From: Prorocentrum cordatum
Lineage: Eukaryota
Length of the DNA stretch: 64,000 bases
Assembly: GCA_963575745.1 (NCBI GenBank)
Contig: CAUYUJ010000114.1
Span: 992,001-1,056,000, forward strand
Direction: 5' to 3'
A model generated the notes under the pieces. That model saw only the letters and a list, made by a program, of their open reading frames with translations. It made no database searches and was not told the DNA's origin. The position numbers and the translations under genes were made by a program. Shown here piece after piece: positions 6,001 through 34,523 of the stretch; within the stretch, counting starts at the first letter, position 1, and every line of letters starts with the position of its first letter.

Positions 6001-7600
6001 CACCATCGTCGTTCAGGAGGGAAAAACATGATGGACCCACGAACCCAGAAAGGGATATAGACATGTGGAGCACGGTCACGTTTTCACGATACCCAATTGG
6101 GCGACACCTCAAGAAACATCCCACGAGACACCCCGCGAAACATCCCACGAGACACCTCACGATACATTCACGAGACACCTCACGAAACATTCCAACGCGA
6201 CACACCCGCCGCCCGGAGCCCACCAGAGGCCGCTCCAGTCAAAAAACAAAACACTCGTACGATCCCAGACGCGATCGGGGGAGGGGGAGGGGGAGGGGGA
6301 GGTGGTGGTGGTGTATTATTTTGGGGCCCCCCCCACCGTCGGGGACGGAGGAGGCACCGCGGTCGGCACCTCCCTGTCCGGGCCGCGTCTTGGTTAGACA
6401 ACCACGCCGACGGACGTCTGGGGAGGGCCTCGACGTCGCCGCCGTTGCTGCCACTGACGTCGCCACCATCGTCGTTCAGGAGGGAAAAACATGATGGACC
6501 CACGAACCCGGAAAGGGATATAGACATGTGGAGCACGGTCACGTTTTCACGATACCCAACTGGGCGACACCTCAAGAAACATCCCACGAGACACCCCGCG
6601 AAACATCCCACGAGACACCTCACGAAACATTCCACGAGACACCTCACGAAACATTCCACGCGACACCCCCGCCGCCCGGAGCCCACCAGAGGCCGCTCCA
6701 GTCAAAAAACAAAACACTCGTACGATCCCAGACGCGATCGGGGGAGGGGGAGGGGGAGGGGGAGGTGGTGGTGGTGTATTAGTTTTGGGCCCCCCCCACC
6801 GTCGGGGACGGAGGGACGGAAGGGCGTCGGCACCTCCTGGGCCGCGTCTTGGTAGACAACACGCCGACGGACGTCTGGGGAGGGCCTCGCCCGTCCCCGC
6901 CGTTGCTGCCACTGACGTCGCCACCATCGTCGTTCAGGAGGGAAAAACATGATGGACCCACGAACCCGGAAAGGGATATAGACATGTGGAGCACGGTCAC
7001 GTTTTCACGATACCCAACTGGGCGACACTCAAGAAACATCCCACGAGACACCCCGCGAAACATCCCACGAGACACCTCACGAAACATTCCACGAGACACC
7101 TCACGAAACATTCCACGCGACACCCCCGCCGCCCGGGAGCCCCACCAGAGGCCGCTCAGTCAAAAAACAAAACACTCGTACGATCCCAGACGCGATCGGG
7201 GGAGGAGGAGGGGGAGGGGGAGGTGGTGGTGGGTATTATTTTTGGGCCCCCCCCACCGTCGGGGACGGAGGGACGGAAGGGCGTCGGCACCTCCCTGGGC
7301 CGCGTCTGGTAGACAACACGCCGACGGACGTCTGGGGAGGGCCTCGCCGTCGCCGCCGTTGCTGCCACTGACGTCGCCACCATCGTCGTTCAGGAGGGAA
7401 AAACATGATGGACCCACGAACCCGGAAAGGGATATAGACATGTGGAGCACGGTCACGTTTTCACGATACCCAACTGGGCGACACCTCAAGAAACATCCCA
7501 CGAGACACCCCGCGAAACATCCCACGAGACACCTCACGAAACATTCCACGAGACACCTCACGAAACATTCCACGCGACACCCCGCGAAACATTCCACGAG
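1..7600. repeat. Tandem satellite, ~458-bp unit, ~16.5 copies, with an internal 24-bp subrepeat (CACGAGACACCTCACGAAACATTC) and a (GGGGGA)n tract
   Basis: AAAACATGATGGACCCACGAAC recurs at 1, 478, 1417, 2344, 2811, 3269, 3727, 5104, 5565, 6023, 6486, 6944 and 7400 (458-bp period in clean units). The array runs off the left edge. Confidence 0.97.
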
Positions 7601-7702
7601 ACACCCCACGAACAGGCAACCACTCAACCAAAGCACATCGCGGACGAGGACGACGACGGCATTCCACGAGACACCCCACGAAACATTCCACGGGAGTGCG
7701 AC

Positions 7703-8345
7703 TGGGTGTGGTCGTGCTGTGGTGTGGTCGTGCTGGGGCGTGGTCGTGCTGAGGAGTGGTCGTGCTGGGGTGTGGTCGTGCTGGGGTGTGGTCGTGCTGG
7801 GGGGTGGTCGTGCTGGGGGGTGGTCGTGCTGATGGGGTGGCCGTGCTGGGGGGTGGTCGTGCTGGGGCGTGGTCGTGCTGGGGCGTGATCGTGCTGGGGT
7901 GTGGTCGTGCTGTGGTGAGGTCGCGCTGTGGTGAGGTCGTGCTGGGGTGTGGTCGTGCTGGGGTGTGGTCTTGCTGGGGTGGGGTCGTGCTTGGGTGGGG
8001 TCGCGCTGTGGTGAGGTCGTGCTGGGGTGTGGTCGTGCTGGGGTGGGCTCGTGCTGGGGCGGGGTCGTGCTGGGGAGTGGTCGTGCTGGGGCGTGGTCGT
8101 GCTGGGGTGTGGTCGTGCTTGGGTGGGGTCGTGCTGGGGTGTGGTCGTGCTGGGGTGTGGTCGTGCTGGGGTGGGCTCGTGCTGGGGTGGGGTCGTGCTG
8201 GGGAGTGGTCGTGCTGGGGTGTGGTCGTGCTGGGGTGTGGTCGTGCTGGGGCGTGGTCGCGCTGGGGTGGGGTCGTGCTGGGGCGGGGTCGTGCTGGGGA
8301 GTGGTCGTGCTGGGGCATGGTCGTGCTGGGGTGTGGTCGTGCTGA
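7703..8345. repeat. 16-bp G-rich minisatellite (GGTCGTGCTGGGGTGT)n
   Basis: Directly visible tandem copies with single-base variants. Confidence 0.95.
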
Positions 8346-8542
8346 GGCGGCCCGCACCCTGTGATTTATCGATCGGGATTTCAAAAACAAGCGTTTCGCC
8401 GGAGACATCCTCAAATTTTAATCCGCCGGCCTCCTTCGACCTCGATATTTATCAGGGAAAGAATCCGCCGGCCTCCTTTAAGTTGGGCGCGGGGGACTAT
8501 GTTTACATACTAAAAGAGAACCCTGGGCCTGAGCCCTTTCCG

Positions 8543-8702
8543 GGAAAAACACAGACACACTTAATCGCCGATTCCCCAGAAAATATGGGAAAATATGGGA
8601 AAATATGGGAAGTGGGGGGAAGACAGAAACCCAGAAGATATGGTAAAATATGGGTAATATTTTGATTTGTGTGTATTAATTTGTGTGTCCTGGGGCCCCT
8701 TC
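8543..8702 (+). mobile_element. Dispersed ~150-bp MITE/SINE-like element (called family S here)
   Basis: ACACAGACAC...CCCCAGAAAATATGGGAA...TTTGTGTGTCC(C/T)(A/G)GGGCCCCTT also occurs at 14630 (split), 25480 and 35545, and in degenerate form near 42520. Confidence 0.8.
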
Positions 8703-8808
8703 TGTCGTCGCCGCCGTGGTCGTCGCCGCCGCCGTCGTCGCGACAGCCGCCCGCGTCGCTGTCGCCCCCGCTGCAGTCGCTGCCGTCTTCTCGCCGCCGC
8801 CGGCCGCG

Positions 8809-8842
8809 GCGAGGCGGGCTACTCGAACTGGGAGGCGGGGTG
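8809..8842 (+). CDS. Partial or degenerate exon of the Cys/Trp-repeat gene (EAGYSNWEAG-W)
   Basis: Matches the 3' third of exon 16335-16442 and ends TG|GT. The following 40 bp match the intron after 16442. No intact 5' half or acceptor is seen. Confidence 0.55.
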
Positions 8843-9951
8843 GTCGCTGGGGTCGCCCTGGAAGCCGCGCGCGCTACACGGGGATCGGTGAGATCGACAG
8901 GGGACGGAAGGAACGGGTACGAAAGCCAGGGTTGGGTGGCATGTCGGCCCCTCGCAGTTCAAAGGTTGTTTCGAGCTTGGGGCGGAAGAGGCAGATTCCT
9001 CTCTCTCTCTCTCTCTTTCTCTTTCTGTTTGTTTGTTATTTTTGTTGGTTCTCTCTCTCTGTTTTTGTGTTGCTTCTTGTTTTACTGGAGACATTCATAT
9101 TGCTTTCTTATGATTATTTTCGCGAGGGGATGTTACGAAGAGTTCCTTCAGGAAGCGCCCTTTTGTGTGTGGGCGTGCCAATATATTACCTTAGGGGAGG
9201 GCACACATCGATTTTTTTCCGTGGGCGTTTTTGCATCGTTTTCCTCTGCGGGGATACAAAAATATTCCCTCTGTGTGTGGGGGGGTTTGGACTGGTTGAT
9301 CCTTTTTGTGTCGGACGGGGGGGGACCATGGGGGGAAAGTCAAACTTTCCCCGCGACGTAACCGGAATCAATTTGTCCCCACCCACATCTTCGTCGCAGC
9401 GCCGCAGAGGCAGTCCGCACGCGCGCTCAGGCGGTCAGGACAATGGAAAGCGCAAACTCACCGGCGGCAGGAGGAAGGGACAACGGGCGAAAGCGGCTGC
9501 GAGGGGGGAAGGAGGGATGGGAGGGCACTGCCATGGCGATGTGCGTCGCCGTGGAGCGGCCGGGGCGGGCAGCCAATGCTGCATCCCTGGCAGCAGGCGC
9601 AGGGGCTGCAGTGCACGAAGCGGAAGAGGCACTGCACTGAGACAGACAACGAATGGCCACGTCGACGACGACCCAGTCATGCGGGTGGCCAAGAGGTGGC
9701 TGGGCCCTGGGCGGCAAAATGCAGCGGGGAAGGCCATGGGCCGGCTGGAGGGGGCGGGCATTGCTGCCTGCTGGGGCCTGCGTTGGCGGGTGCGGGAGGG
9801 GACCGATCCCACCGGCAGCTGGCCAGCGAGGAGGCAGCGCAGCAGGTGGCGGGGGCGCAGTGGCGCGCCCGCGCAGCAGCGCCGTGCACTGCAAGGGGCG
9901 AATGGCGGCGGCCCGTGCCGGCCTGAGGGGGGCGGGAAGGGGGCAAACGCT

Positions 9952-10120
9952 GAGCATTTTCCTAGGGTGGAGGGCTCAGGGTGACATCCATATGGGGGGT
10001 TCTGCTCCTCGAAAATCAGTCCGTCTTGTGACTCACCTTTTGCAGGTTCAAAACTCGAAAGTGAATCGACGGCATTTCAGATTTCACTCACCCTTTGCCC
10101 TCCACCCAAAGAAAATGCTC
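9952..10120 (+). mobile_element. MITE, ~170 bp, TIR GAGCATTTT...GGGTGGAGGGC
   Basis: Imperfect TIRs; an inverted homologous copy lies at 40832-40996. Confidence 0.75.
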
Positions 10121-11269
10121 TGAACTCTGAAACGACTGGGACCCCAGGTCGCCGTGCGGCGAGGCGGCGGGCAGGCGGAGTCAAAAGCGGCGCGCAGATG
10201 GCGGCAGACCCGGGCGGCACCCAGCCTGGAGGCAGCCCACGCAGCAGCGCAAGCGCCCCGGCGGGGTGGCAGGGGGGGTGCGCCTCTCGGCACGCCCAAG
10301 GGCCAGAGGGCCCAGAGGTGGCAGGGGGGAGCGCCTCTTGGCGGCCGCCGCAAGCGCCACCCAGGGCGCCCAAGCCACTGGCAACTGCAGCATTTTGAAG
10401 AAGCGGCGGCCGCGCTGGCAGGGGCCAGCGCCAGTCGGAGGCGCAGCCGCAGGCCCAGACAGCAGCCAAACTTAAGGCAGCAGGCGCGGAGGCGCCATCG
10501 CCCCAGACGGATTGACAGCTGGGCGCCCCCTTGCACGCTCCACGGGCCGTCTGGCACAGGGGTATGGTTGACGGGAGGCCGACCAGAGAGCCCGCGCGGG
10601 CAGCGCGCGCGCCGCGCCAGGGCCGTCAAGCCGCGGGCGGGCGCAGCGTCCCGAAAGGGCAGTGGGAGGCGACTCCGTGTCCAGGCGCCGCGCCAGGGTC
10701 ATCCTAGCCGTTGGCAGGCACAGCGCCCCGAAGAAGCGGCGGTCGCGCCAAGTGACTCCATCATCCGGGGTTGACCGAGCATCCCAGATTCCAGGTTCAA
10801 CGCATCTGATGGGCCCGCACACTTGCACGGGCAGCGATCAGCCAGCGAACCCAGGCAGGTGCAACGCTTTTGATCGGTGCGCACACTTGTGCATCGCAGC
10901 CACGGCACGTCCTGGGGAGTTAGGCGCTCCAGCAGGGAGGAGGTATATCCACCTGGAGGAGCGTGCGCACCCAGAGGGAGGAGAGGGGGTCGGCGCGCCA
11001 CCTGGGGTGGGTAACGCGCCCACGAGACACGCGCCTGATTGGTGCACGCACAGGTATAATTACGCGCCTGGTGCCAACTGGGGGGGGTACGTAGGCGCCG
11101 TGGGGTGCAGAGTCGGATATCCAGGGCCAGTGCCAGTGAGTGCAGTGACGAACAGAGCGTCGCGACCGTCGCACAAGCGCCCGCCAGGTTGCCACCTCAT
11201 CACCCCCATGCCCCGGACTGTCGGGCACATGCCACTGCGGGACTGAATTCGCGCAGACGCTGGTAACGG

Positions 11270-14240: not shown

Positions 14241-14763
14241 CGCAGGGGCTAGGGTCGAGCAGTGGCGAAGCGTTCCGGTTCGCTTATAGCCCTACCAACC
14301 AATGTTCTAAGAATTTGTTGCGGTTTCCACGAAATGTTCTTAGAACATGTCTGGTTGGGATTGTCTTGTTTTAACACATCGGATGGGCCCCCCTCTCCCC
14401 CCACCGAATGGGCGTTCCCCGTCGTGGAAAATTTGGCCGCGCGCGTCACCAGGTCCTCCCGACAGAGGGGCATCCCCAGGCGTGGGAAGATCTGTCCCGG
14501 GCTGGTCGGAGGTCCCGTTCGATCTCCAGGTTAGAGAGAGTCAAGGCGGCCTCGACGGCTTCGCGACTGATCGTCGCAGTCACAGGCGTAGCGAGCGCTG
14601 CCAGCGCTGCCCTTTCCTCAGGGTTCAGGAGGAAAATCAACACAGACACAATTCATCGTCGACTCCCCAGGAAAATACAGGAAAATATGGGAAGTGGTGG
14701 GGAAGACAAAAACCCAGAACATATGGGGAAGATATGGGGAATCCTGCTATTTGTGTCTATTTG

Positions 14764-15556
14764 CACAGGGGTACCATAGTTTTGACCATAAGGCGTCAGC
14801 CTTCCGACCACCCCCCATCCCCCAGTAGAATCTTAGCGACAGGTTTTCGGTCGGGCAGCGGTCCGAAGCCGATGGGCTCGTACCCCGTAAGAATATATTC
14901 CAGATTTCGTAATGAAAGGGAGGGGGTCTGGACCCTCCAAGACAAGCCATTTCAGACCTCCCCCGTGGGAGAACCCTCCAAAACATCGTCCCCAGACCCC
15001 TCAGGCCCTCCAAGATAGCCTGGAAGAGACCCCCCCCGAAATGAGACCCCCCTCCCTTTATTACGAAATCTGGAGTAATAATGTATCTTTAAAACGGTGT
15101 GATAATCGCTCCGTCCTACTAAAAATAGGCCGGGAAATCATTCCGACTTGGACCCACTCGCACTGGAATCACTCCGCACAGACAGAGTCAAGTTTCTCTT
15201 AGGATTTGAGTCGTCGCCCCAAAGAAAGCGCACCCGCGCGTTTCCGCATCGGTTTGAATGTTTCATTTTGCGTTCTTTATCCAAGTAGACATCCGCTACG
15301 GGCGCGCGATGACCCCTCCTGGGGCCTTCGGGCCCCAGGAGGGGTCATCACGCGCCTTCGGCGGATGCGTGGCGCTCGGCATCCTTATCCAACGCGGTTG
15401 CTCCTGCTTCACTGGTTGGTCATCCGATCTCAGAGAGCTCAAGGAAGTTGGGGGGCCCGCATCGGGGCATGTCTGTTTCCTCCTCCGTCGTCGGCGGCAC
15501 GCGGCACCAGCGAGGCAATTCTCCACCGATGGTCAAAAACTCTAGTACCCGACAAG
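14764..15556 (+). mobile_element. Solo diverged copy of the TIR-bounded unit of the 20218-24894 element
   Basis: Left end GGGGTACCATAGTTTTGACCAT, right end ATGGTCAAAAACTCTAGTACCC. The body is colinear with 20218-20731. TATTTG is duplicated at 14758-14763 and 15557-15562. Confidence 0.85.
14898..15075 (+). mobile_element. Tc1/mariner-type MITE, 178 bp, TA target duplication
   Basis: ~32-bp TIR (C/T)TCCAGATTTCGTAAT..AAAGGGAGGGGGTCT with TA on both flanks. An inverted copy lies at 34524-34702. Confidence 0.88.
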
Positions 15557-17562: not shown

Positions 17563-18212
17563 TATGGGCTCATGGGGGGAGCGCATCGACCCCCCGTCGC
17601 CCATGCATTGCCGATAGGGGCCATGTAGCTTGCCGCGCGCGGGAACGTGCAGCTTCGCTATCGGGGGCCCATCGCTGATCGATCGGCGGTTTCTGGCCGA
17701 TTCCAGCTCGATGTTTCCCCCCAGAGCTGCCACCCCCCATCGTTCCCCCTCGGTGCTGCGGGCAGCGCTTGGCAGATGAGTTACCGCGCCGGCCTCGAGG
17801 CGGGCACCTCAAGGCGGCGGCGTGAGACCCCAGACCGCGCGCTCTCACGCGCCCACACACGCACAAACACACTTTTCTTTTTTCTGTTGCGGCCTCGCGC
17901 GCAGCGACGAGGCGAAGTGTACGATGGCGACAGGGCCCCCAAGCACCATGCAGTCCTACCAGCATAAGCCATCAGGGCGTGGATAGCAGGGAGGATACAC
18001 GCAGCAATTTGGGAGATACCCTCAAGGAAGCATTTGGTATGGAGGACAGCATAAGCCATCCGGGCATGGAAGGCAGGGAGTGAGCGCGCAGGCCAAGGGG
18101 GTTGCCCCGACGGCGATCGTGAAGGACGAGGACGACGCCTGGCGGGGCCGAGCGAAGTGCAGTGCGCGCCAAAGGGCGACAACAAGGAGGCGTGCAGCGC
18201 CCTGAAAACCAA

Positions 18213-18810
<598 letters not shown>

Positions 18811-18899
18811 TGGGAGATCCCGGGCCCCGGGCCCCGGGCCGGAACCTCCCTTGTATATAGGGTGCGGCCCTCTCCCGGGGCGCCCTTCCGGCGGCCCCC

Positions 18900-19910
18900 G
18901 CGCGTTCCAGCCCGCCCAAGAGGGCTCCAGGAGCGCCGAGAGAACCCCAGGATCGCTTCAAGACCGCCAAAGATCGCTTCCAGAAGGGTCAAGAGGCGCT
19001 CAAACCGCCCCAAGAGGCCTTCAAGAGGCCCCCCACGAGCGCCCCGGGAGACCAAAATAGCCCCATTTCCTTCGTAAAACGTACATTTTTACGATATCAG
19101 CTCCCTTAGCTGTCGGAGCGGCCAGAAAACCCCACGAGGCGCCCAAGGACGCTCCAGGACGACTGAGGACAGCCCCAAGACGGCCCAGGAGGGCCTCCCG
19201 GGACGCTCCTCCGGCGGCCCCCGGGCTGCCCAGTCCGCCCAAGAAGGCTCCAAGAGCGCCGAGAGAAGCCCATAGGATCGCTTCAAGACCGCAAAGGATC
19301 GCTTCCAGAAGGGCCAAGAGGCCATCAAACCGCCCCAAGAGGCCTCCAAGAGGCCCCCCAAGAGCGCCCCGGGAGACCAAAATGGCCCCATTTCCTTCGT
19401 AAAACGTGCATTTTTACGATATCAGCTCCCTTGGCTGTCGGAGCGGTCCGAAAGCCCCACGAGGCGCCCTAGGATAGCCCGAAGACAGCCCTGGAAGGCC
19501 TCCCGGGACGCTCCTCGGGCGGCCCCCGGGCCTCCCAGTCCGCCAAAGAAGGCTCCAAGAGCGCCGAGAGAAGCCCAGGATCGCTTCAAGACCGCCAAAG
19601 ATCGCTTCCAGAAGGGACAAGAGGCCATCAAACCGCCCCAAGAGGCCTCCAAGAGGCCCCCCAAGAGCGCCCCGGGAAACCAAAATGGCCCCATTCCCTT
19701 CGTAAAACGTACATTTTTAGGATATATCATCCCTTGGCTGTCCGAGTTGTCAGACAGCCCCAGGAGGCGCCCAAGGACGCCCCAGGACGCCTGAGGACAG
19801 CGCTAAGAGGGCCTAGGAGGGCTTCCTGGGACGCTCCTCGGGCGGCCCCCGGGCCTCCCAGTCCGCCCAAGATGGCCCAAGAGACTTCCCGGTCGCCCCG
19901 AGAGGGCCCC
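18900..19910. repeat. Tandem repeat, ~300-330 bp unit, about 3 copies
   Basis: CCCCATT(T/C)CCTTCGTAAAACGT at ~19061, ~19387 and ~19689. Related degenerate sequence lies on the opposite strand near 43830-44100 and 48290-48440. Confidence 0.88.
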
Positions 19911-20782
19911 CGGAGCGCTCCGATACGGCCCAACATGGCCTCCATAGGTCTTTCTATGTTTTGAGGCCCAGAATGAGGCCCTCCAGATTTGGTCCGACGA
20001 TGTGGCGCGGCTCCAAGGGGGGGGGGCCTAATATTGCAGAACAATACAATATGTAGCATATGTAACAAGTATGCAATCGTTGGATACACTGGACACGTTG
20101 CATTAAAGCATCCGCGGACCTGCCTCTGGCAACACGTCATTTTCGGACGTAGATTTCCCGCGAATCGCCACGGAATCGGACCCGTTCTTGCGAACACCGT
20201 TTTCGGAGAAAACTAGACGGGGGTACTAAAAGTTTTGACCATAAGAACGTCATGCTCTCGACGCCCCCTGCCCCCCCGTAGAATCTTAGCGACATGTTTT
20301 GGGTCGGGCGGCGGTTCGACTCCGATGGGCTCTCACCCTGTAAGAATATAATAATATATATTTAAAACAGGGTGATAATTACTCCGTCCCATTTAAAATA
20401 GGGCCGGAAAACACTCCGACTTGAACCCATTCACAGTAAACCACTCCGCTTGGGTCACGTTTGATCGTCCGTGTCATCATCCCCATCGACCCTGTCCTTA
20501 TCATGCCAACGCGATGTTTCATTGTATTCCTTGTTGCGTTGATGCTGTGAGACCCTGGGCATCCTTCTCCAATGCGGTCGCTCTCGGTTCACTGGTTGGC
20601 CGTCCCAGAGGGCCCACAAAGGCTCGCGAATCCGCATCGAGGCACCTTTGCATCCTGATCGGTCCGCCGCGGCACGCGTGACCAGCGAGGCAATTCTCAT
20701 CTTATGGTCAAAAACTTTAGTACCCCCGAAGGGCAACATGGGTTCTCGCCGCCGCCAATCATCATCGTCATCTCCATCATCT

Positions 20783-20803
20783 TTGCAGCCGCTTTGGCTC
20801 AAG
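20783..20803 (+). other. Relict dinoflagellate spliced-leader-like sequence
   Basis: TTGCAGCCGCTTTGGCTCAAG versus DinoSL CCGTAGCCATTTTGGCTCAAG. The last 11 nt are identical and it ends 31 nt before the ATG at 20835. Confidence 0.75.
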
Positions 20804-20834
20804 ACCTTAGCAAGGATTTGCTCTGCTGTTGGTC

Positions 20835-21236
20835 ATGGGGTTGACAGGCGCAGTGCAAGCCCGGAGGGCTTTGGTGAAGTTGCTCCTCACGGTTGCTGCG
20901 GCGTACTCGGTTGTGGTTCGCCTCCACAGGGACTCCCAGGACAGCGAGGTGATCGCAGCCTTTCGAAAGGTGCTCCGCAAGGCGCACCCGGACAAGGGCG
21001 GGGCAGACGAGCACACGAAGCAGCTGAACGCCGCGAAGGAGCGTCGTGAAGAGCAAGATGGCACAGTCCGTGGGGGCGGCGCAGGCGAAGCTGATGAAGC
21101 GCGTCTGCAGGGAAGTGGTGCGCAAAAAGGGCGCGGCCACGGGCTTCTGAAGCGGGCCAAGCCCCGAGCCGCATTGGGGCGCGTTCACACAGGTGGAACA
21201 ACTCAAAATCAGCGTCGGCGTTTGCCGCGCGGGTGA
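20835..21236 (+). pseudogene. N-terminal J-domain ORF truncated by internal deletion
   Basis: ...DSEVIAAFRKVLRKAHPDKGGADEHTKQLNAAKE has helix II, HPD and helix III of a J-domain. It then joins out of frame to the DDE-like C-terminal segment. Confidence 0.8.
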
Positions 21237-21754
21237 GCACTCCATCTGCCCTGGCCGTTGGCCGTGCAGGTGAGAAAAGTCCGCGCGGGGGGTACTATAG
21301 TTTTGACCATAAGACGTCATGCTCTCGACGCCCCCTGCCCCCCCCGTAGAATCTTAGCGACATATTTTGGGTCGGGCGGCGGTTCGACTCCGATGGGTTC
21401 TCACCCTGTAAGAATATAATAATATATATTTAAAACAGGGTGATAATTACTCCGTCCCATTTAAAATAGGGCCGGAAAACACCCCGACTTGAACCCATTC
21501 ACAATAAACCACTCCGCTTGGGTCACGTTTGATCGTCCGTGTCATCATTCCCATCGACCCCTGTCCTTATCAATCCACGCGAGGTTTTTTGTATTTCCTT
21601 GTTGCGTTGATGCTGTGAGACCCTGGCACCTTCTCCATGCGTTCGCTCTCGGTTCACATGGCTGGGCCAGTCCCAGAGGGCCCACAAAGGGCCCTCGCGA
21701 ATCCGCATCAAGCACCTTTGCAGTGCATCCTGAAGTCGGTCCCCGCGCACGCGT

Positions 21755-21854
21755 NNNNNNNNNNNNNNNNNNNNNNNNNNNNNNNNNNNNNNNNNNNNNN
21801 NNNNNNNNNNNNNNNNNNNNNNNNNNNNNNNNNNNNNNNNNNNNNNNNNNNNNN
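21755..21854. other. Assembly gap (100 N)
   Basis: Run of N inside the array, so true copy number is unknown. Confidence 1.
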
Positions 21855-22552
21855 CCAAGCCCCCGGGCCGCATTGGCGCGTTCGCAGGTGGACAACTCAT
21901 CAGCGTCGGCTGTTTGCCGCGCGGGTGAGCACTCCATCTGCCCTGGCCGTTGGCCGTGCAGGTGAGAAAAGTCCGCACGGGGGGTACTATAGTTTTGACC
22001 ATAAGACGTCATGCTCTCGACGCCCCCTGCCCCCCCGTAGAATCTTAGCGACATATTTTGGGTCGGGCGGCGGTTCGACTCCGATGGGCTCTCACCCTGT
22101 AAGAATATAATAATAATATATATATATATATATAAAACAGGGTGATAATTACTCCGTCCCATTTACAATAGGGCCGGAAAACACTCCGACTTGAACCCAT
22201 TCACAGTAAACCACTCCGTTTAGGTCACGTTTGATCGTCCGTGTCATCATCCCCATCGACCCTGTCCTTATCATGCCAACGCGATGTTTCATTGTATTCC
22301 TTGTTGCATTGATGCTGTGAGACCCTGGGCATCCTTCTCCAATGCGGTCGCTCTCGGTTCACTGGTTGGCTGTCCCAGAGGGACCACAAAGGCTCGCGAA
22401 TCCGCATCAAGGCACCTTTGCATCCTGATCGGTCCTCCGCGGCACGCGTGACCAGCGAGGCAATTCTCATCTTATGGTCAAAAACTTTAGTACCCCCGAA
22501 GGGCAACATGGGTTCTCGCCGCCGCCAATCATCATCGTCATCTCCATCATCT

Positions 22553-22573
22553 TTGCAGCCGCTTTGGCTCAAG
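22553..22573 (+). other. Second relict spliced-leader-like copy
   Basis: Identical to 20783-20803; the downstream start codon is mutated to ACG. Confidence 0.75.
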
Positions 22574-22692
22574 ACCTTAGCAAGGATTTGCTCTGCTGTT
22601 GGTCACGGGGTTGACTGGCGTAGTGCAAGCCCGGAGGGCTTTGGTGAAGTTGCTCCTCACGGCTGCTGCGGCGTACTCGGTTGTGGTTCGCG

Positions 22693-22920
22693 AGCCCCGC
22701 AGAGCGGTGCTGGTTTTGGCTGCGTCGGAAGCTGCGGCTCATGGACTTGGACGACGCCGTGAAGAAGCGGCCCGTGCTGGGGAAGACGGTGTACAGGGCG
22801 CGGGTTCGGAGCGTCGTGAAGAGCAAGAAGGCACAGTCCGTGGGGGCGGCGCAGGCGAAGCTGACGAAGCGCGTCTGCAGGGAAATGGCGCGCAAGAAGG
22901 GCGCGGCCACGGGCTTCTGA
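22693..22920 (+). pseudogene. C-terminal fragment of an IS630/Tc1-like DDE transposase
   Basis: SPAERCWFWLRRKLR resembles the (SPDL)NPIE.xW..LK motif carrying the last catalytic residue. A basic helical tail follows and ends KKGAATGF*. Confidence 0.6.
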
Positions 22921-23270
22921 GCGGGCCAAGCCCCCGGGCCGCATTGGCGCGTTCACAGGTGGACAACTCATCAGCGTCGGCCGTTTGCCGCGCGGGTGAG
23001 CACTCCATCTGCCCTGGCCGTTGGCCGCGCAGGTGAGAAAAGTCCGCACGGGGGGTACTATAGTTTGACCATAAGACGTCATGCTCTCGACGCCCCCTGC
23101 CCCCCCGTAGAATCTTAGCGACATGTTTTGGGTCGGGCGGCGGTTCGACTCCGATGGGCTCTCACCCTGTAAGAATATAATAATATATATTTAAAACAGG
23201 GTGATAATTACTCCGTCCCATTTAAAATAGGGCCGGAAAACACTAGCAAGGATTTGCTCTGCTGTTGGTC

Positions 23271-23702
23271 ATGGGGTTGACTGGCGCAGTGCAAGCCCGG
23301 AGGGCTTTGGTGAAGTTGCTCCTCACGGTTGCCGCGGCGTACTCGGTTGTGGTTCGCCTCCACAGGGGCTCCCAGGACAGCGAGGTGATCGCAGCCTTTC
23401 GAAAGGTGCTCTGCAAGGCGCACCCGGACAAGGGCGGGGCAGACGAGCACACGAAGCAGCTGAACGCCGCGAAGGAGCGTCGTGAAGAGCAAGAAGGCAC
23501 AGTCCGTGGGGGCGGCGCAGGCGAAGCTGATGAAGCGCGTCTGCAGGGAAGTGGTGCGCAAGAAGGGCGCGGCCACGGGCTTCTGAGCGGGCCAAGCCCC
23601 CGGGCCGCATTGGCGCGTTCACAGGTGGACAACTCATCAGCGTCGGCCGTTTGCCGCGCGGGCGAGCACTCCATCTGCCCTGGCCGTTGGCCGCGCAGGT
23701 GA
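23271..23702 (+). pseudogene. J-domain ORF copy (deleted derivative)
   Basis: AFRKVLCKAHPDKGG; near-identical to the 20835 copy. Confidence 0.8.
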
Positions 23703-23937
23703 GAAAAGTCCGCACGGGGGGTACTATAGTTTTGACCATAAGACGTCATGCTGTCGACGCCCCCTGCCCCCCCGTAGAATCTTAGCGACATGTTTTGGGT
23801 CGGGCGGCGGTTCGACTCCGATGGGCTCTCACCCTGTAAGAATATAATAATATATATTTAAAACAGGGTGATAATTACTCCGTCCCATTTAAAATAGGGC
23901 CGGAAAACACTAGCAAGGATTTGCTCTGCTGTTGGTC

Positions 23938-24369
23938 ATGGGGTTGACTGGCGCAGTGCAAGCCCGGAGGGCTTTGGTGAAGTTGCTCCTCACGGTTGCT
24001 GCGGCGTACTCGGTTGTGGTTCGCCTCCACAGGGACTCCCAGGACAGCGAGGTGATCGCAGCCTTTCGAAAGGTGCTCCGCAAGGCGCACCCGGACAAGG
24101 GCGGGGCAGACGAGCACACGAAGCAGCTGAACGCCGCGAAGGAGCGTCGTGAAGAGCAAGAAGGCACAGTCCGTGGGGGCGGCGCAGGCGAAGCTGATGA
24201 AGCGCGTCTGCAGGGAAGTGGTGCGCAAGAAGGGCGCGGCCACGGGCTTCTGAGCGGGCCAAGCCCCCGGGCCGCATTGGCGCGTTCACAGGTGGACAAC
24301 TCATCAGCGTCGGCCGTTTGCCGCGCGGGCGAGCACTCCATCTGCCCTGGCCGTTGGCCGTGCAGGTGA
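23938..24369 (+). pseudogene. J-domain ORF copy (deleted derivative)
   Basis: AFRKVLRKAHPDKGG; exactly 667 bp after the previous copy. Confidence 0.8.
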
Positions 24370-24894
24370 GAAAAGTCCGCGCGGGGGGTACTATAGTTTT
24401 GACCATAAGACGTCATGCTCTCGACGCCCCCTGCCCCCCCGTAGAATCTTAGCGACATGTTTTGGGTCGGGCGGCGGTTCGACTCCGATGGGCTCTCACC
24501 CTGTAAGAATATAATAATATATATTTAAAACAGGGTGATAATTACTCCGTCCCATTTAAAATAGGGCCGGAAAACACTCCGACTTGAACCCATTCACAGT
24601 AAACCACTCCGCTTGGGTCACGTTTGATCGTCCGTGTCATCATCCCCATCGACCCTGTCCTTATCATGCCAACGCGATGTTTCATTGTATTCCTTGTTGC
24701 GTTGATGCTGTGAGACCCTGGGCATCCTTCTCCAATGCGGTCGCTCTCGGTTCACTGGTTGGCCGTCCCAGAGGGCCCACAAAGGCTCGCGAATCCGCAT
24801 CAAGGCACCTTTGCATCCTGATCGGTCCGCCGCGGCACGCGTGACCAGCGAGGCAATTCTCATCTTATGGTCAAAAACTTTAGTACCCCCGAAG

Positions 24895-24932
24895 TAGAAC
24901 CTAAGCGCGCGCGAAGCGCGCGCGTGGTTCTA
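24895..24932 (+). other. GC hairpin with GAA loop, resembling a Helitron-type 3' end
   Basis: TAGAACC-TAA-GCGCGCGC-GAA-GCGCGCGC-GT-GGTTCTA, followed by (TA)n. Confidence 0.55.
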
Positions 24933-28809: not shown

Positions 28810-33810
<5,001 letters not shown>

Positions 33811-34523
33811 ATCGGGCGGAGCCATTACCGGGATAAGTCATTCCAGAGCGTTTTGGAACGTTCTCAGAGCGCTCTGAAATGGTTGTGGCGCCCAAAACGT
33901 CCTCTGGGAAATGCATATCTCAGAGATCCCCCACTTGTTCCGAAGAAGAAAAAGTTGCATCGGCGCTTTGCCCCCTTCCCTGGCGTGCAGAGCGCGCCAG
34001 GGGCGGCGCCAGAGGCGCCGCCAGGGGGCCCAGCGCAGATCTAAGAAATCCGCGCGGACATCCTAGAGTTTCTGATTGTGCAGTGTTCTGTTCGTCGAGC
34101 GTCCTGGTCGGGTTTTGTCCCGGTCTTGGCCTCGTCCGATTTGTTGGCATGATGTTGGTTTATCTTCGATGTTCACGCGGATACGGGCACGAGCAGCTGC
34201 GAGGATCTTTGGCGGCAGAACTCAAGAGCAGCAAGTGGTGATAGCCCCCTTGAGAGGAAGCGGATTCAATGTGGGGCTGAAATTGGTGGGCGTTTGCGCT
34301 GGGAAAAAATATCTTCGATGCTGACCGACCCCCGCGTGGCCCCCCTCCTGCCGGCGGTACTCAGGAGCGCTGCCGGGCTCGATGGTTCCGCCGCCGTGAG
34401 GCGCGGCTCCCGTGGCAGCGCCGCAGGGCGAAGTTACGCGCGCCGGCGGCGCACATCAGAGTAGATAGGAACGTGACCCCAGCATCCTCCTTCTTCTCCT
34501 CGGCTCCGAGGCGGAAATTTACA

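What the first reader, a model, noticed from the sequence alone, without database searches (positions are those of the whole stretch)
20835..21040. HPDKGG J-domain at the N-terminus of a mobile-element ORF: a T-antigen-like replication protein?
Seen: a compact J-domain starting about 30 aa from the ATG, in three copies. Known: HPDKGG is the motif of the N-terminal J-domain of polyomavirus T antigens, which continue into an HUH-derived origin-binding domain and an SF3 helicase; it also occurs in Pam18/Tim14. Inference: the deleted middle may encode an HUH Rep and SF3 helicase, making this a J-Rep-helicase plus DDE element that recruits host Hsp70. The Rep and helicase are NOT visible in this window.
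Basis: inference. Interest (0 to 1): 0.82.

Follow-up and report, generated by a model that had tools for sequence, protein, structure and literature searches.

The report
J-domain remnant of Rep-helicase transposon
The three HPDKGG J-domains are broken leftovers of a dinoflagellate mobile element whose intact relatives encode a J-domain fused to a virus-like rolling-circle replication nuclease and helicase, next to a Tc1-type transposase, a pairing I could not find described.

Summary
The window (Prorocentrum cordatum) carries three exact HPDKGG J-domain ORFs. They sit in a 4.7-kb array (20216-24894) of internally deleted units.

Each unit keeps only about 70 N-terminal residues of a larger protein. 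These are joined out of frame to the last ~36-75 residues of a Tc1-like DDE transposase.

Undeleted relatives number at least 349 proteins, or 2105 clusters at 50% identity. They come from Symbiodinium, Polarella and marine metagenomes. They are ~480-aa intronless proteins with three parts:
- a J-domain with invariant HPDKGG;
- an HUH endonuclease (fold match to geminivirus Rep, Z 11.4);
- an SF3-type helicase with Walker A, Walker B and motif C.

A same-strand Tc1-like or pogo-like transposase gene lies beside the Rep gene in 34 of 79 metagenome loci, and the two genes co-diverge. Units of 3.7-8.7 kb appear circular or tandem. They also carry a non-coding cassette: Tc1-type inverted repeats around a conserved AT-rich hairpin with ACTCCG repeats, a likely replication origin.

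No Rep, helicase or intact transposase is present in this window. The proposed life cycle (rolling-circle copying plus transposase-mediated integration) is inferred, not shown.

The parts
20216..24894 (+). Array of alternating units B-A-B-[gap]A-B-A*-b-A-b-A-B. A is the deleted gene segment and B is the non-coding cassette bounded by inverted repeats. TA dinucleotides flank the array at 20214-20215 and 24895-24896.
   Evidence: Self-blast and repeat maps and sequence reading. The flanks show no similarity to A: 285 of 500 and 499 of 500 shuffles reach the observed alignment scores.
20216..20731 (+). B cassette, copy 1. Inverted-repeat arms lie at 20218-20246 and 20700-20728, with their outer (GGGGG) ends facing outward.
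   Evidence: Arm pair with 2 mismatches in 29 nt. The pattern scan gives 4 matches against 0 expected.
20333..20375 (+). Hairpin with a 9-bp stem and an AT-rich loop that holds the conserved 20-mer (20351-20370). An ACTCCG motif follows. This is the candidate replication origin.
   Evidence: DNA fold -9.7 kcal/mol, z -3.7. The 20-mer recurs on the + strand in 12 of 79 metagenome loci with up to 4 mismatches, and 0 times in shuffles.
20732..21279 (+). A unit 1: an internally deleted gene segment made of the J-Rep N-terminus joined to the transposase C-terminus.
   Evidence: tblastn with P0003: residues 1-73 map to 20835-21053 at 90% identity. The transposase tail runs to 21147.
20785..20803 (+). 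Stretch resembling the 3' part of the dinoflagellate spliced leader, 31 nt upstream of the ATG.
   Evidence: Read. The 10-mer at 20794-20803 is exact 26-58 nt upstream of the J-Rep ATG in 3 of 68 metagenome loci (L033, L074, L087). The likeness to the spliced leader is recalled, not tested.
20835..21236 (+). J-domain ORF copy 1 (ATG to stop). Only about residues 1-70 are in the original frame.
20916..21041 (+). J-domain copy 1 (Pfam DnaJ positions 6-51). The HPDKGG codons are at 20985-21002.
21040..21150 (+). Remnant of the Tc1-like transposase C-terminus (last ~36 residues plus stop). It lies in a different frame from the J ORF.
   Evidence: tblastn, and the alternative-frame reading compared with P0002/P0003.
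22502..23042 (+). A* unit: a separate deletion derivative. It keeps J-Rep residues 1-29 and transposase residues 427-501, including the third catalytic-residue motif. It has no J-domain.
   Evidence: tblastn: P0003 2-29 maps to 22608-22691 (93%) and 427-501 maps to 22693-22917 (91%). No Pfam DnaJ hit.
23271..23702 (+). J-domain ORF copy 2 (HPDKGG at 23421-23438). It sits in a 667-bp tandem sub-unit that lacks the right half of B and the first ~76 nt of A.
23938..24369 (+). J-domain ORF copy 3 (HPDKGG at 24088-24105).
24376..24894 (+). Terminal B cassette closing the array.
14760..15556 (+). Solitary, diverged B cassette with a small nested inverted-repeat insert. It is flanked by TA on both sides inside a TATTTGTGT repeat. 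Its flanks are unrelated to A.
   Evidence: Blast hits at 14768-14798 and 15506-15550, sequence, and a copy of the 20-mer at 15078.

Best explanation
The HPDKGG J-domains are the surviving N-termini of a replication protein of a two-gene dinoflagellate mobile element.

SHOWN
- Gene 1, intact only in relatives elsewhere, is a ~480-aa intronless protein. It has a J-domain, a disordered linker, a catalytic-looking HUH rolling-circle endonuclease of the CRESS/geminivirus type, and an SF3-type helicase.
- Gene 2, on the same strand, is a Tc1-like transposase (DD35E). In one lineage it is a pogo-like transposase instead.
- A third, non-coding part (B) lies between the end of the transposase gene and the start of the Rep gene. 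It consists of 16-29-nt Tc1-type inverted repeats enclosing an AT-rich hairpin and ACTCCG repeats.
- In this window every copy has lost the stretch from Rep codon ~71 (or ~30) to transposase codon ~464 (or ~427), by deletions at short microhomologies. The copies are therefore dead remnants that encode no Rep, helicase or transposase activity.

INFERRED life cycle
- Rep nicks the hairpin in B and copies unit circles or concatemers by rolling-circle replication. The J-domain recruits host Hsp70 to load or remodel the Rep hexamer.
- The transposase cuts at the outer repeat ends, which face the genes. A gene-carrying piece must therefore run from one B to the next (B-A-B, as cut from a multimer). 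It is pasted at TA sites.
- Recombination or Rep-mediated release between the two B copies restores the circle and leaves solitary B cassettes.
For: Identity of the J ORF
- The window's first 74 residues retrieve P. cordatum proteins at 90-99% identity, and J-Rep proteins at 41-66%.
- tblastn places only residues 1-73 of the Rep and only the C-terminal end of the transposase (P0003 residues 414/427-501) in the window.

Family
- 349 proteins at E<=1e-5 among 8000 scored candidates.
- 2105 cluster representatives at E<=1e-3, 271 of them at E<=1e-30.
- Named members come from Symbiodinium natans (one labelled 'Replication associated protein' by UniRef), S. necroappetens, Symbiodinium sp. CCMP2592 and Polarella glacialis.

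Motifs: invariant HPDKGG, T130/Y131, H172, H174, Y224, K229, G361-K362, D402-D403, T449 and N451 in 25 of 25 sequences. The corresponding residues are invariant in 43 of 43.

Fold (model pLDDT 92.6)
- Residues 3-143 against TYLCV Rep: Z 11.4, rmsd 2.6 A, 105 of 108 residues. Against WDV Rep: Z 11.2.
- Residues 213-359 against JCV and SV40 T-antigen helicase: Z 10.0.
- Foldseek against PDB: Vientovirus Rep 2.5e-6, SV40 large T antigen 3.3e-5, AAV Rep68 5.1e-5.
- Foldseek against BFVD: 474 matches at E<=0.001, topped by CRESS-virus Reps covering both domains.

Linkage to the transposase
- A transposase gene is present in 34 of 79 loci (26 Tc1-like, 8 pogo-like), and every best match lies on the Rep strand.
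- Rep and transposase pairwise identities correlate: Mantel r 0.74, with 0 of 2000 permutations as high.
- The transposase ORFs have no stops (14 of 14). D175 is present in 13 of 14, D286 in 14 of 14 and E321 in 14 of 14.

Circular or tandem units
- Seven contigs have exact terminal direct repeats, giving units of 3704-7426 bp.
- L043/L072 and L097/L098 are circular permutations of one sequence from different assemblies.
- L044 has a 126-nt, 99% terminal repeat, and L056 holds two diverged units in tandem.

B cassette
- Inverted repeats of one shared type flank the conserved 20-mer in the window, L034, L035, L043, L059 and L063, with a similar pair in L089.
- In 8 of 12 sites the minimum-energy fold puts a stem around the motif, and the stem sequences differ between loci.

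Orientation of the repeats
- The array begins and ends with whole B cassettes next to unrelated DNA and TA.
- A solitary B sits between TA and TA.
- Contigs of public runs join A-tail directly to A-head without B, keeping a few end nucleotides, like excision footprints.
Against: - No Rep, helicase or intact transposase is in the window. No intact helicase was found in the closest relatives either: P0005-P0007, at 85-88% identity to the window, lose the frame before Walker A. Activity in P. cordatum itself is therefore unsupported.
- Sequence-only tools barely see the Rep. Pfam Gemini_AL1 hits 11 of 25 members (best E 0.0017) and REP_ORF2-G2P hits 12 of 25 (best E 4.7e-4), all below threshold. 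The PDB profile search found J-domains only.
- The helicase Z of 10.0 is no better than that of ClpX-type AAA+ proteins (9.8).
- The Tyr-Lys spacing is YxxxxK, not the YxxK that I recall as canonical.
- Terminal repeats cannot tell circles from tandem arrays, and no circular DNA was observed directly.
- In 45 of 79 loci no transposase was seen. Most of these contigs are under 3 kb, but L040, L046, L075 and others have 1-2 kb of flank without one.
- In 4 of 12 motif sites the minimum-energy fold has no enclosing stem.
- A/B junctions inside units lack TA, and the left end of the array is 4-5 nt shorter than internal left ends.
- In L089 a separate 52-nt inverted repeat encloses both genes and B, as in a classical transposon.
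- In run X1 the word depth of the A head and tail (17,000-43,000) exceeds that of B (5,900-11,200). My model does not predict this.
Confidence: 0.8

Rival explanations
1. Classical transposon reading. The mobile unit is [inverted repeat - J-Rep - transposase - inverted repeat]. B is only a spacer or preferred target between tandem copies. Deleted copies are ordinary MITE-like derivatives that keep both ends.
For: - At least 24 different internal deletions keep the A head and A tail next to the repeats (joints 20779-20816 to 21220-21249). Head and tail have the highest word depth, as expected for transposon ends.
- L089 has a 52-nt inverted repeat that encloses both genes, and the contig ends at it.
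Against: - The array starts and ends with complete B cassettes, not with A ends.
- A solitary B has unrelated flanks with TA on both sides.
- B, with its hairpin motif, is conserved between lineages whose proteins are only ~50% identical.
- The L043 repeat begins with CAGTG on the gene-facing side, which I recall as the outer end of Tc1.
- A-tail to A-head joints lacking B look like B excision footprints.
Confidence: 0.15
2. Integrated or episomal virus. The units are genomes of a CRESS-like or polyomavirus-like virus of dinoflagellates. The window holds decayed endogenous viral copies, and a capsid gene exists but was missed.
For: - Circular-looking 3.7-8.7-kb units.
- The Rep fold is that of CRESS-DNA viruses.
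- The 7.3-kb units (L097-L104) hold extra ORFs of 180-358 aa without Pfam matches.
Against: - The 3.7-4.1-kb units (L033, L034, L043/L072) have room for the two genes and B only.
- The IMG/VR scan returned J-domain matches only: 32 loci, none covering the Rep or helicase.
- Copies lie on nuclear contigs of up to 1.4 Mb and in diverged tandem pairs.
- A transposase with inverted repeats and TA flanks is a transposon feature.
- The extra ORFs lie in 59-60% GC DNA, where long spurious ORFs are common.
Confidence: 0.08
3. J-transposase. The J-domain is fused directly to the DDE transposase and assists transposition. There is no Rep in the Prorocentrum lineage.
For: NCBI gene models P0002 (277 aa) and P0003 (501 aa) of P. 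cordatum join the J N-terminus to a Tc1-like DDE_3 domain. The window ORFs run from J sequence into transposase-derived DNA.
Against: - In the window the two parts are in different frames, joined at a 7-nt microhomology.
- P0002 and P0003 still contain the Rep segment with motif I (vLLTY) between the J-domain and the transposase.
- Relatives at 85-88% identity to the window (P0005-P0007) continue into the HUH domain.
- In 26 loci the Tc1-like transposase is a separate ORF about 430-920 bp downstream of the Rep stop.
Confidence: 0.03
4. Host chaperone fragment. The ORF is an exon or a captured piece of an ordinary host DnaJ gene carried by a MITE.
For: The J-domain profile matches cellular DnaJ best (E 5.7e-6). 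The window ORFs are short and repeated.
Against: The residues upstream of the J core and the whole N-terminus align with the N-termini of J-Rep proteins. All 25 aligned relatives have the same J-Rep-helicase order. Most metagenome loci encode it as one uninterrupted ORF; 5 of 79 gave no open frame of 300 residues or no usable map.
Confidence: 0.02

Closest known systems
Rep proteins of CRESS-DNA viruses (Cressdnaviricota: geminiviruses, genomoviruses, nanoviruses, vientovirus) and the related bacterial integrated plasmids described by Kazlauskas et al. 2019 (PMC6668415; I read matching passages only)
   Same: - An HUH nuclease followed by an SF3 helicase in one ~350-aa module.
- Best fold matches over both domains.
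- An origin-like hairpin with neighbouring short repeats.
- Small units that may be circular.
- Like the bacterial integrated plasmids, no capsid gene.
   Different: - An N-terminal J-domain and a ~40-residue disordered linker.
- A long helical insert between nuclease and helicase.
- Tyr-Lys spacing of YxxxxK.
- The candidate origin loop is 23-30 nt, not a short loop with the nonanucleotide I recall.
- The partner gene is a DDE transposase, not a capsid or a site-specific integrase.
Polyomavirus large T antigen
   Same: Same domain order: a J-domain with HPDKGG, then an HUH-fold DNA-binding domain, then an SF3 helicase. The SV40 full-length chain is the second-best Foldseek PDB hit (E 3.3e-5), and the JCV/SV40 helicases reach Z 10.0.
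   Different: - Here the HUH histidines and the Tyr are invariant. As I recall, the T-antigen origin-binding domain has lost them.
- The nuclease domain matches geminivirus Reps, not the T-antigen origin-binding domain.
- The J profile scores T-antigen J-domains weakly (E 0.0086-0.11, against 5.7e-6 for DnaJ).
- No capsid genes.
- The Zn-binding domain and the LXCXE motif were not looked for.
Tc1/mariner and pogo transposons and their MITEs
   Same: - The neighbouring gene has HTH_Tnp_Tc3_2 plus DDE_3 (above the Pfam cut-off) with a DD35E triad.
- Short inverted repeats.
- TA next to all 4 insertion ends seen in the window.
- Many internally deleted derivatives.
   Different: - A second large gene (J-Rep-helicase).
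- The inverted repeats enclose a non-coding origin-like cassette rather than the transposase gene.
- Units occur as tandem or circular multimers.
Helitrons
   Same: Eukaryotic mobile elements that use an HUH nuclease fused to a helicase. Tandem arrays are common.
   Different: As I recall, the Helitron helicase is SF1 (Pif1-like) and Helitrons have no DDE enzyme or inverted repeats. Here Helitron_like_N matched only 2 of 25 members, at best E 0.07.
Bacterial cointegrates formed from plasmid dimers by cut-and-paste insertion sequences (recalled from the IS10/IS50 literature)
   Same: The product is a donor replicon flanked by two direct copies of the transposable segment, with a target duplication at the outer ends. 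This is the B-A-B layout of the window array.
   Different: The known cases are prokaryotic. No eukaryotic case is known to me, and the donor multimer is not shown here.

Membership tests
J-domain (Pfam DnaJ, PF00226) | HPD tripeptide in the loop between helices II and III | tested here: met
   HPDKGG is present in 3 of 3 window copies and invariant in 25 of 25 relatives. The P0008 model has helices 35-49 and 57-76 with HPD at 50-52.
J-domain (Pfam DnaJ, PF00226) | Profile score above Pfam's gathering cut-off (27.8 bits) | tested here: inconclusive
   The window copies score 25.2, 22.6 and 25.0 bits, all below the cut-off. Relative P0012 scores 30.9, above it. All 25 relatives match at E<=1 (best 6.8e-10).
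HUH rolling-circle Rep endonuclease (CRESS/geminivirus type) | Motif I (hydrophobic-hydrophobic-T-hydrophobic) and motif II (H-hydrophobic-H) | tested here: met
   Relatives only: LLTY with T130 and Y131, and invariant H172 and H174 in 25 of 25. T13, H55 and H57 are invariant in 43 of 43. The window copies lack this region.
HUH rolling-circle Rep endonuclease (CRESS/geminivirus type) | Motif III catalytic Tyr (YxxK) | tested here: inconclusive
   Y224 and K229 are invariant (FYxWADK) at the end of a helix. The spacing is YxxxxK. No residue-level superposition or enzyme assay was done.
HUH rolling-circle Rep endonuclease (CRESS/geminivirus type) | Nuclease-domain fold | tested here: met
   Z 11.4 (rmsd 2.6 A over 105 of 108 residues) against TYLCV Rep, 11.2 against WDV Rep, 10.8 against the vientovirus nuclease domain and 9.6 against FBNYV M-Rep.
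SF3 helicase | Walker A, Walker B and motif C (conserved Asn) | tested here: met
   GxSxxGKTEW (356-365), HDxxxLDD (396-403) and T449-x-N451. G361, K362, D402, D403 and N451 are invariant.
SF3 helicase | A fold specific to SF3 rather than general AAA+; an arginine finger | tested here: inconclusive
   JCV/SV40 helicase reaches Z 10.0, against 9.8 for ClpX and other AAA+ proteins. Foldseek ranks vientovirus Rep, SV40 large T antigen, AAV Rep68 and papillomavirus E1 first. The arginine finger was not assigned.
Polyomavirus large T antigen | Origin-binding domain that is an inactivated HUH fold; Zn-binding domain; virus with VP capsid genes | tested here: not met
   The HUH and Tyr residues are conserved. 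The units hold no capsid-sized third gene in the 3.7-4.1-kb forms. The Zn domain was not examined.
Tc1/mariner transposase (neighbouring gene; C-terminal remnant in the window) | HTH plus DDE_3 domains and a DDE triad | tested here: met
   DDE_3 scores 37-48 bits against a cut-off of 28.6 in 6 loci. D175 is present in 13 of 14, D286 in 14 of 14 and E321 in 14 of 14. The window keeps only the part from the third motif onward, in A*.
Tc1/mariner transposon | Inverted terminal repeats with a TA target duplication | tested here: met
   29-nt arms with 2 mismatches. TA adjoins both ends of the array and both ends of the solitary B. This rests on two insertions only, and the left end of the array is irregular.
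Helitron | RepHel with an SF1 helicase, and no inverted repeats | tested here: not met
   Helitron_like_N matched 2 of 25 members at E 0.07. The helicase motifs and fold are SF3-like.

The most novel reading that the evidence does not exclude
Dinoflagellate nuclear genomes host an undescribed class of mobile replicon. It is a plasmid-like unit of 3.7-8.7 kb that pairs a CRESS-type rolling-circle Rep carrying its own J-domain with a cut-and-paste DDE transposase. The transposase's inverted repeats enclose the replication origin rather than the genes.

Rolling-circle multimers would be the transposition substrate. Integration would therefore automatically produce tandem arrays and greater-than-unit copies from which Rep can release new circles.

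If this is true, it gives a living example of a J-domain joined to a still-catalytic HUH-SF3 Rep, the domain order of polyomavirus T antigen. It also offers a concrete mechanism that could contribute to the tandem-repeat-rich architecture of dinoflagellate genomes.
Probability: 0.4. Interest if true: 0.9.

Novelty: new variant of a known kind. Interest (0 to 1): 0.8.

Why it matters
1. It links two mobility machineries that are normally separate in eukaryotes: a rolling-circle Rep and a DDE cut-and-paste transposase. The two co-diverge in one unit (Mantel r 0.74), and the family is large (2105 clusters at 50% identity).

2. J-HUH-SF3 is the domain order of polyomavirus large T antigen, but here the nuclease looks catalytic. 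Virus evolutionists have proposed that such proteins descend from CRESS-type Reps. This family shows that a J-domain can be joined to an active-looking Rep, and it allows a test of what the J-domain does for a Rep hexamer.

3. Dinoflagellate genomes are rich in tandem arrays. An element whose integration product is inherently tandem, and whose non-coding cassette carries an origin, is a testable contributor.

4. For annotation: P. cordatum and S. natans gene models merge these genes into 'Tc1-like transposase' proteins of up to 1696 aa. These models are artefacts.

For this window alone, the copies are dead remnants.

Tried and rejected
- Whole-genome search: no genome is held for this window. 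Full-length P. cordatum copies and a census of insertions could therefore not be made.
- ARAGORN found no tRNA, although B contains a T-arm-like string. Rfam found nothing in 20150-21450 at E<=1.
- The IMG/VR scan with the family alignment gave 32 loci, all matching the J-domain only (query residues 6-98). None was a family member.
- The PDB sequence-profile search gave J-domains only. The two caspase rows at E 0.28-0.29 are noise.
- Pfam sees the Rep only below threshold and does not see the helicase, apart from scattered AAA hits in 2-4 of 25 members.
- The profile search of 1.84 billion representatives listed only family members among its best 150 (all E<=2e-42). It gave no bridge to outside families.
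- A third protein search for intact P. cordatum-lineage proteins found only P0005-P0007 and P0002 at 92% identity or more to the query; the next hit is at 64%.
- RNA evidence is weak. One guessed-RNA run (X19) has 8 contigs on the A head, A tail and repeats. One metatranscriptome (X20) has a single 158-nt contig on 21054-21165. Neither shows transcription securely.
- No J-domain phylogeny against host DnaJ, Pam18 and T antigens was built, because I had no tool-supplied reference sequences. Only the relative E-values bear on this.
- Long ORFs elsewhere in the window gave no meaningful Pfam hits (6 tested; only low-complexity matches in one).
- Literature: nine full-text searches found no description of a J-domain-Rep or of a Rep-plus-Tc1 element in dinoflagellates. 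Of their listings I opened only PMC6668415 and PMC13595969, as matching passages. Neither mentions dinoflagellates or a DnaJ/J-domain fusion. Subscription journals and Repbase are outside the library.
Full report
1. OBSERVATION

The window is GC-rich eukaryotic DNA, and no genome is held for it. Its J ORF is 90-99% identical to NCBI proteins of Prorocentrum cordatum.

The HPDKGG-coding 18-mer occurs exactly three times, at 20985, 23421 and 24088, against a chance expectation of 0.01. Each site lies in an ORF of 133-143 residues counted from the ATG.

Pfam DnaJ matches residues 30-71 of each listed ORF at 22.6-25.2 bits. That is just under the 27.8-bit cut-off.

2. LOCAL ANATOMY

The copies lie in an array, 20216-24894, made of two alternating segments.

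- Segment A (about 550 bp) holds the J ORF.
- Segment B (about 515 bp) is non-coding. It is bounded by 29-nt inverted repeats at 20218-20246 and 20700-20728.

The order is B-A-B-[100 N]-A-B-A*-b-A-b-A-B. The 'b' units are shortened B cassettes joined to an A that lacks its first ~76 nt, giving a 667-bp sub-repeat.

tblastn with the P. cordatum gene model P0003 shows what A contains. It holds residues 1-73 of the J protein and then, in another frame, the extreme C-terminus of a Tc1-like transposase. A* holds residues 1-29 and transposase residues 427-501. The two junctions differ, and the A junction sits at a 7-nt microhomology (21038-21044). A and A* are therefore independent internal deletions of a longer parent in which the J gene lies upstream of a transposase gene. 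No other Rep, helicase or transposase piece is in the window.

3. THE PARENT PROTEIN

The 74-residue N-terminus finds proteins that continue well beyond the J-domain. A search with one of them, P0008 (510 aa), gave 349 proteins at E<=1e-5. A profile of the region after the J-domain found 2105 cluster representatives at E<=1e-3 among 1.84 billion.

Named members come from Symbiodinium natans, S. necroappetens, Symbiodinium sp. CCMP2592 and Polarella glacialis. The rest come from marine and other aquatic assemblies.

In 25 aligned members the following residues are invariant:
- HPDKGG (J-domain);
- T130 and Y131 (motif I);
- H172 and H174 (HUH);
- Y224 and K229;
- G361 and K362 (Walker A);
- D402 and D403 (Walker B);
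- T449 and N451 (motif C).

Sequence libraries barely recognise the middle of the protein. Gemini_AL1 matches 11 of 25 members and REP_ORF2-G2P matches 12 of 25, all below threshold. The PDB profile search returned J-domains only.

Structure settles the question. A model of the post-J part (pLDDT 92.6) gave these matches:
- geminivirus Rep nuclease domains at Z 11.4 and 11.2, rmsd 2.6 A over nearly the whole target;
- full-length vientovirus Rep, SV40 large T antigen, AAV Rep68 and papillomavirus E1 in Foldseek;
- 474 viral proteins at E<=0.001, led by CRESS-virus Reps aligned over both domains.

The helicase Z against T-antigen helicases (10.0) is not better than against general AAA+ proteins (9.8). 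The SF3 assignment therefore rests on the motifs, the small size of the domain and the whole-protein matches.

A full-length model shows a three-helix J-domain, a disordered linker (residues 78-115), then the nuclease.

4. THE PARTNER GENE

Seventy-nine metagenome loci encode the protein. In most of them the Rep-helicase part mapped to one uninterrupted frame. Five loci (L063, L079, L092, L105, L111... for the exact list: L063 gave no usable map; L079, L092 and L105 gave no open frame of 300 residues) did not, and several others are cut by contig ends.

In 34 of the 79 loci a transposase gene lies on the same strand:
- 26 are Tc1-like (HTH_Tnp_Tc3_2 plus DDE_3, above the Pfam cut-off);
- 8 are pogo-like (DDE_1).

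These 34 include redundant assemblies of the same element: L097-L104, L043/L072, L044/L077, and L056/L057/L081. Most of the 45 loci without a transposase are contigs under 3 kb, but several have 1-2 kb of flank without one.

Evidence that the pairing is stable rather than accidental:
- The Tc1-like ORFs are open (14 of 14) and keep a DD35E triad.
- Rep and transposase pairwise identities correlate: Mantel r 0.74, with 0 of 2000 permutations as high. This points to long co-inheritance rather than chance nesting.
- S. natans gene models of 902-944 aa merge the two genes.

5. UNITS, CIRCLES AND ARRAYS

- Seven contigs have exact terminal direct repeats, with units of 3704-7426 bp.
- L044 has a 99% terminal repeat of 126 nt, giving a unit of 8667 bp.
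- L043/L072 and L097/L098 are circular permutations of one sequence in different assemblies.
- L056 contains two diverged units in tandem.
- Both gene orders occur at fixed spacings: Rep followed by transposase, and transposase followed by Rep.

The elements are therefore circular, tandem or both. The data cannot separate these possibilities. The window shows that the tandem form exists in a nuclear genome.

6. THE B CASSETTE

In the transposase-to-Rep spacer, divergent lineages share inverted repeats of one type. These flank a conserved AT-rich 20-mer in the window, L034, L035, L043, L059 and L063, and L089 has a similar pair.

The 20-mer recurs, always on the gene strand, in 12 of 79 loci and at 7 sites in the window. 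It appears 0 times in shuffles.

In 8 of 12 sites the minimum-energy DNA fold puts a stem around the motif, and the stem sequences differ between loci, that is, they covary. In 4 of 12 sites it does not.

ACTCCG repeats lie beside the hairpin.

This is the layout of a Rep origin, a hairpin plus iterons. The nick site itself is not shown.

7. WHICH WAY THE REPEATS FACE

Three observations say that the outer ends face the genes.
- The array starts and ends with complete B cassettes next to unrelated DNA, with TA on both sides.
- A solitary B at 14760-15556 sits between two TA dinucleotides inside a TATTTGTGT repeat.
- Contigs of public runs join A tail to A head without B. They keep 1-7 end nucleotides, like excision footprints.

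B alone is therefore a transposable unit. A gene-bearing unit must span B-A-B, which is the layout of a cointegrate cut from a multimer.

Three observations go against this, or are left unexplained by it.
- The word depth of the A head and tail exceeds that of B, and at least 24 different deletions keep those A ends.
- L089 has an additional 52-nt inverted repeat around everything.
- Junctions inside units lack TA.

I therefore hold the life-cycle model at about 0.4, and the identity of the J ORF at about 0.9.

8. COMPARISON AND NOVELTY

The Rep module is a member of the CRESS-type Rep kind by motifs and fold.

It is not a T antigen. The nuclease residues are conserved, and the J-domain profile prefers cellular DnaJ (E 5.7e-6) to T-antigen J-domains (E 0.0086 or worse).

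Three things appear new: the J-domain fusion, the stable pairing with a DDE transposase, and the origin cassette bounded by inverted repeats.

Nine full-text searches found no description. UniRef's automatic label 'Replication associated protein' on one S. natans member shows that the Rep likeness has been noticed by a pipeline.

9. VERDICT

- The window copies are dead.
- The family they point to is of high interest.

Noticed in passing
window 20785-20803; L033, L074, L087 (26-58 nt upstream of the J-Rep ATG): A stretch resembling the 3' end of the dinoflagellate spliced leader sits just upstream of the J-Rep start codon in the window. Its last 10 nt are exact in three distant metagenome loci (3 of 68 examined; about 0.03 expected by my own estimate). 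It may be a relic of retro-copied mRNA or a leader built into the element. The likeness to the leader is recalled.
   Followed up: partly
window 20693-20814 and 21181-21302, compared with 20815-21180: In contigs of public runs the A head and tail have word depths of 17,000-43,000 (run X1). The J ORF interior has 425-1,087 and the array flank 47-184. Many joints skip the ORF. Most genomic copies therefore lack even the J remnant.
   Followed up: partly
window about 14890-15075, inside the solitary B cassette: A small nested element with its own inverted repeats (ends at about 14899-14932 and 15041-15075) is inserted in the AT-rich loop region of the solitary B.
   Followed up: no
window 24895-24932: Immediately right of the array lies a 38-nt palindrome: TAGAACC, then a GC-rich core, then GGTTCTA. 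An (AT)n/(CA)n microsatellite follows.
   Followed up: no
window 18150-20000: Long (CA)n-type microsatellites give His-Thr repeat ORFs. A 323-bp direct repeat (19501/19824) gives reiterated ORFs on the minus strand. No known domains were sought.
   Followed up: no
window 30001-34000: GC content drops to 0.42, against about 0.60 elsewhere, with strong GC-skew swings. ORFs there gave only low-complexity Pfam matches.
   Followed up: partly
window 20305-20325 (and each B copy): A tRNA T-arm-like string (GGTTCGACTCC) lies upstream of the hairpin. ARAGORN and Rfam find no RNA gene there. It overlaps one ACTCCG repeat.
   Followed up: yes
L098 1146-1221 and 4607-4682 (7.3-kb units L097-L104): Two copies of a 76-nt near-perfect palindrome (36-nt arms, 4-nt loop) lie upstream of the transposase gene and upstream of the Rep gene. 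A second inverted-repeat pair (1438-1457 with 3326-3345 or 3470-3490) brackets the transposase gene alone. Extra ORFs of 180-358 aa have no Pfam match.
   Followed up: no
L044, L054, L056, L057, L068, L077, L081, L095: In one lineage the Rep's partner is a pogo/Tc5-like transposase (DDE_1, with HTH_Tnp_Tc5 in L044) instead of the Tc1-like one. This implies exchange of the integration module.
   Followed up: partly
P0001 (1696 aa), P0002 and P0003 (P. cordatum); P0284-P0286 (S. natans): Public gene models string together several deleted or adjacent element genes into single 'Tc1-like transposase' proteins. They are annotation artefacts of these arrays.
   Followed up: partly
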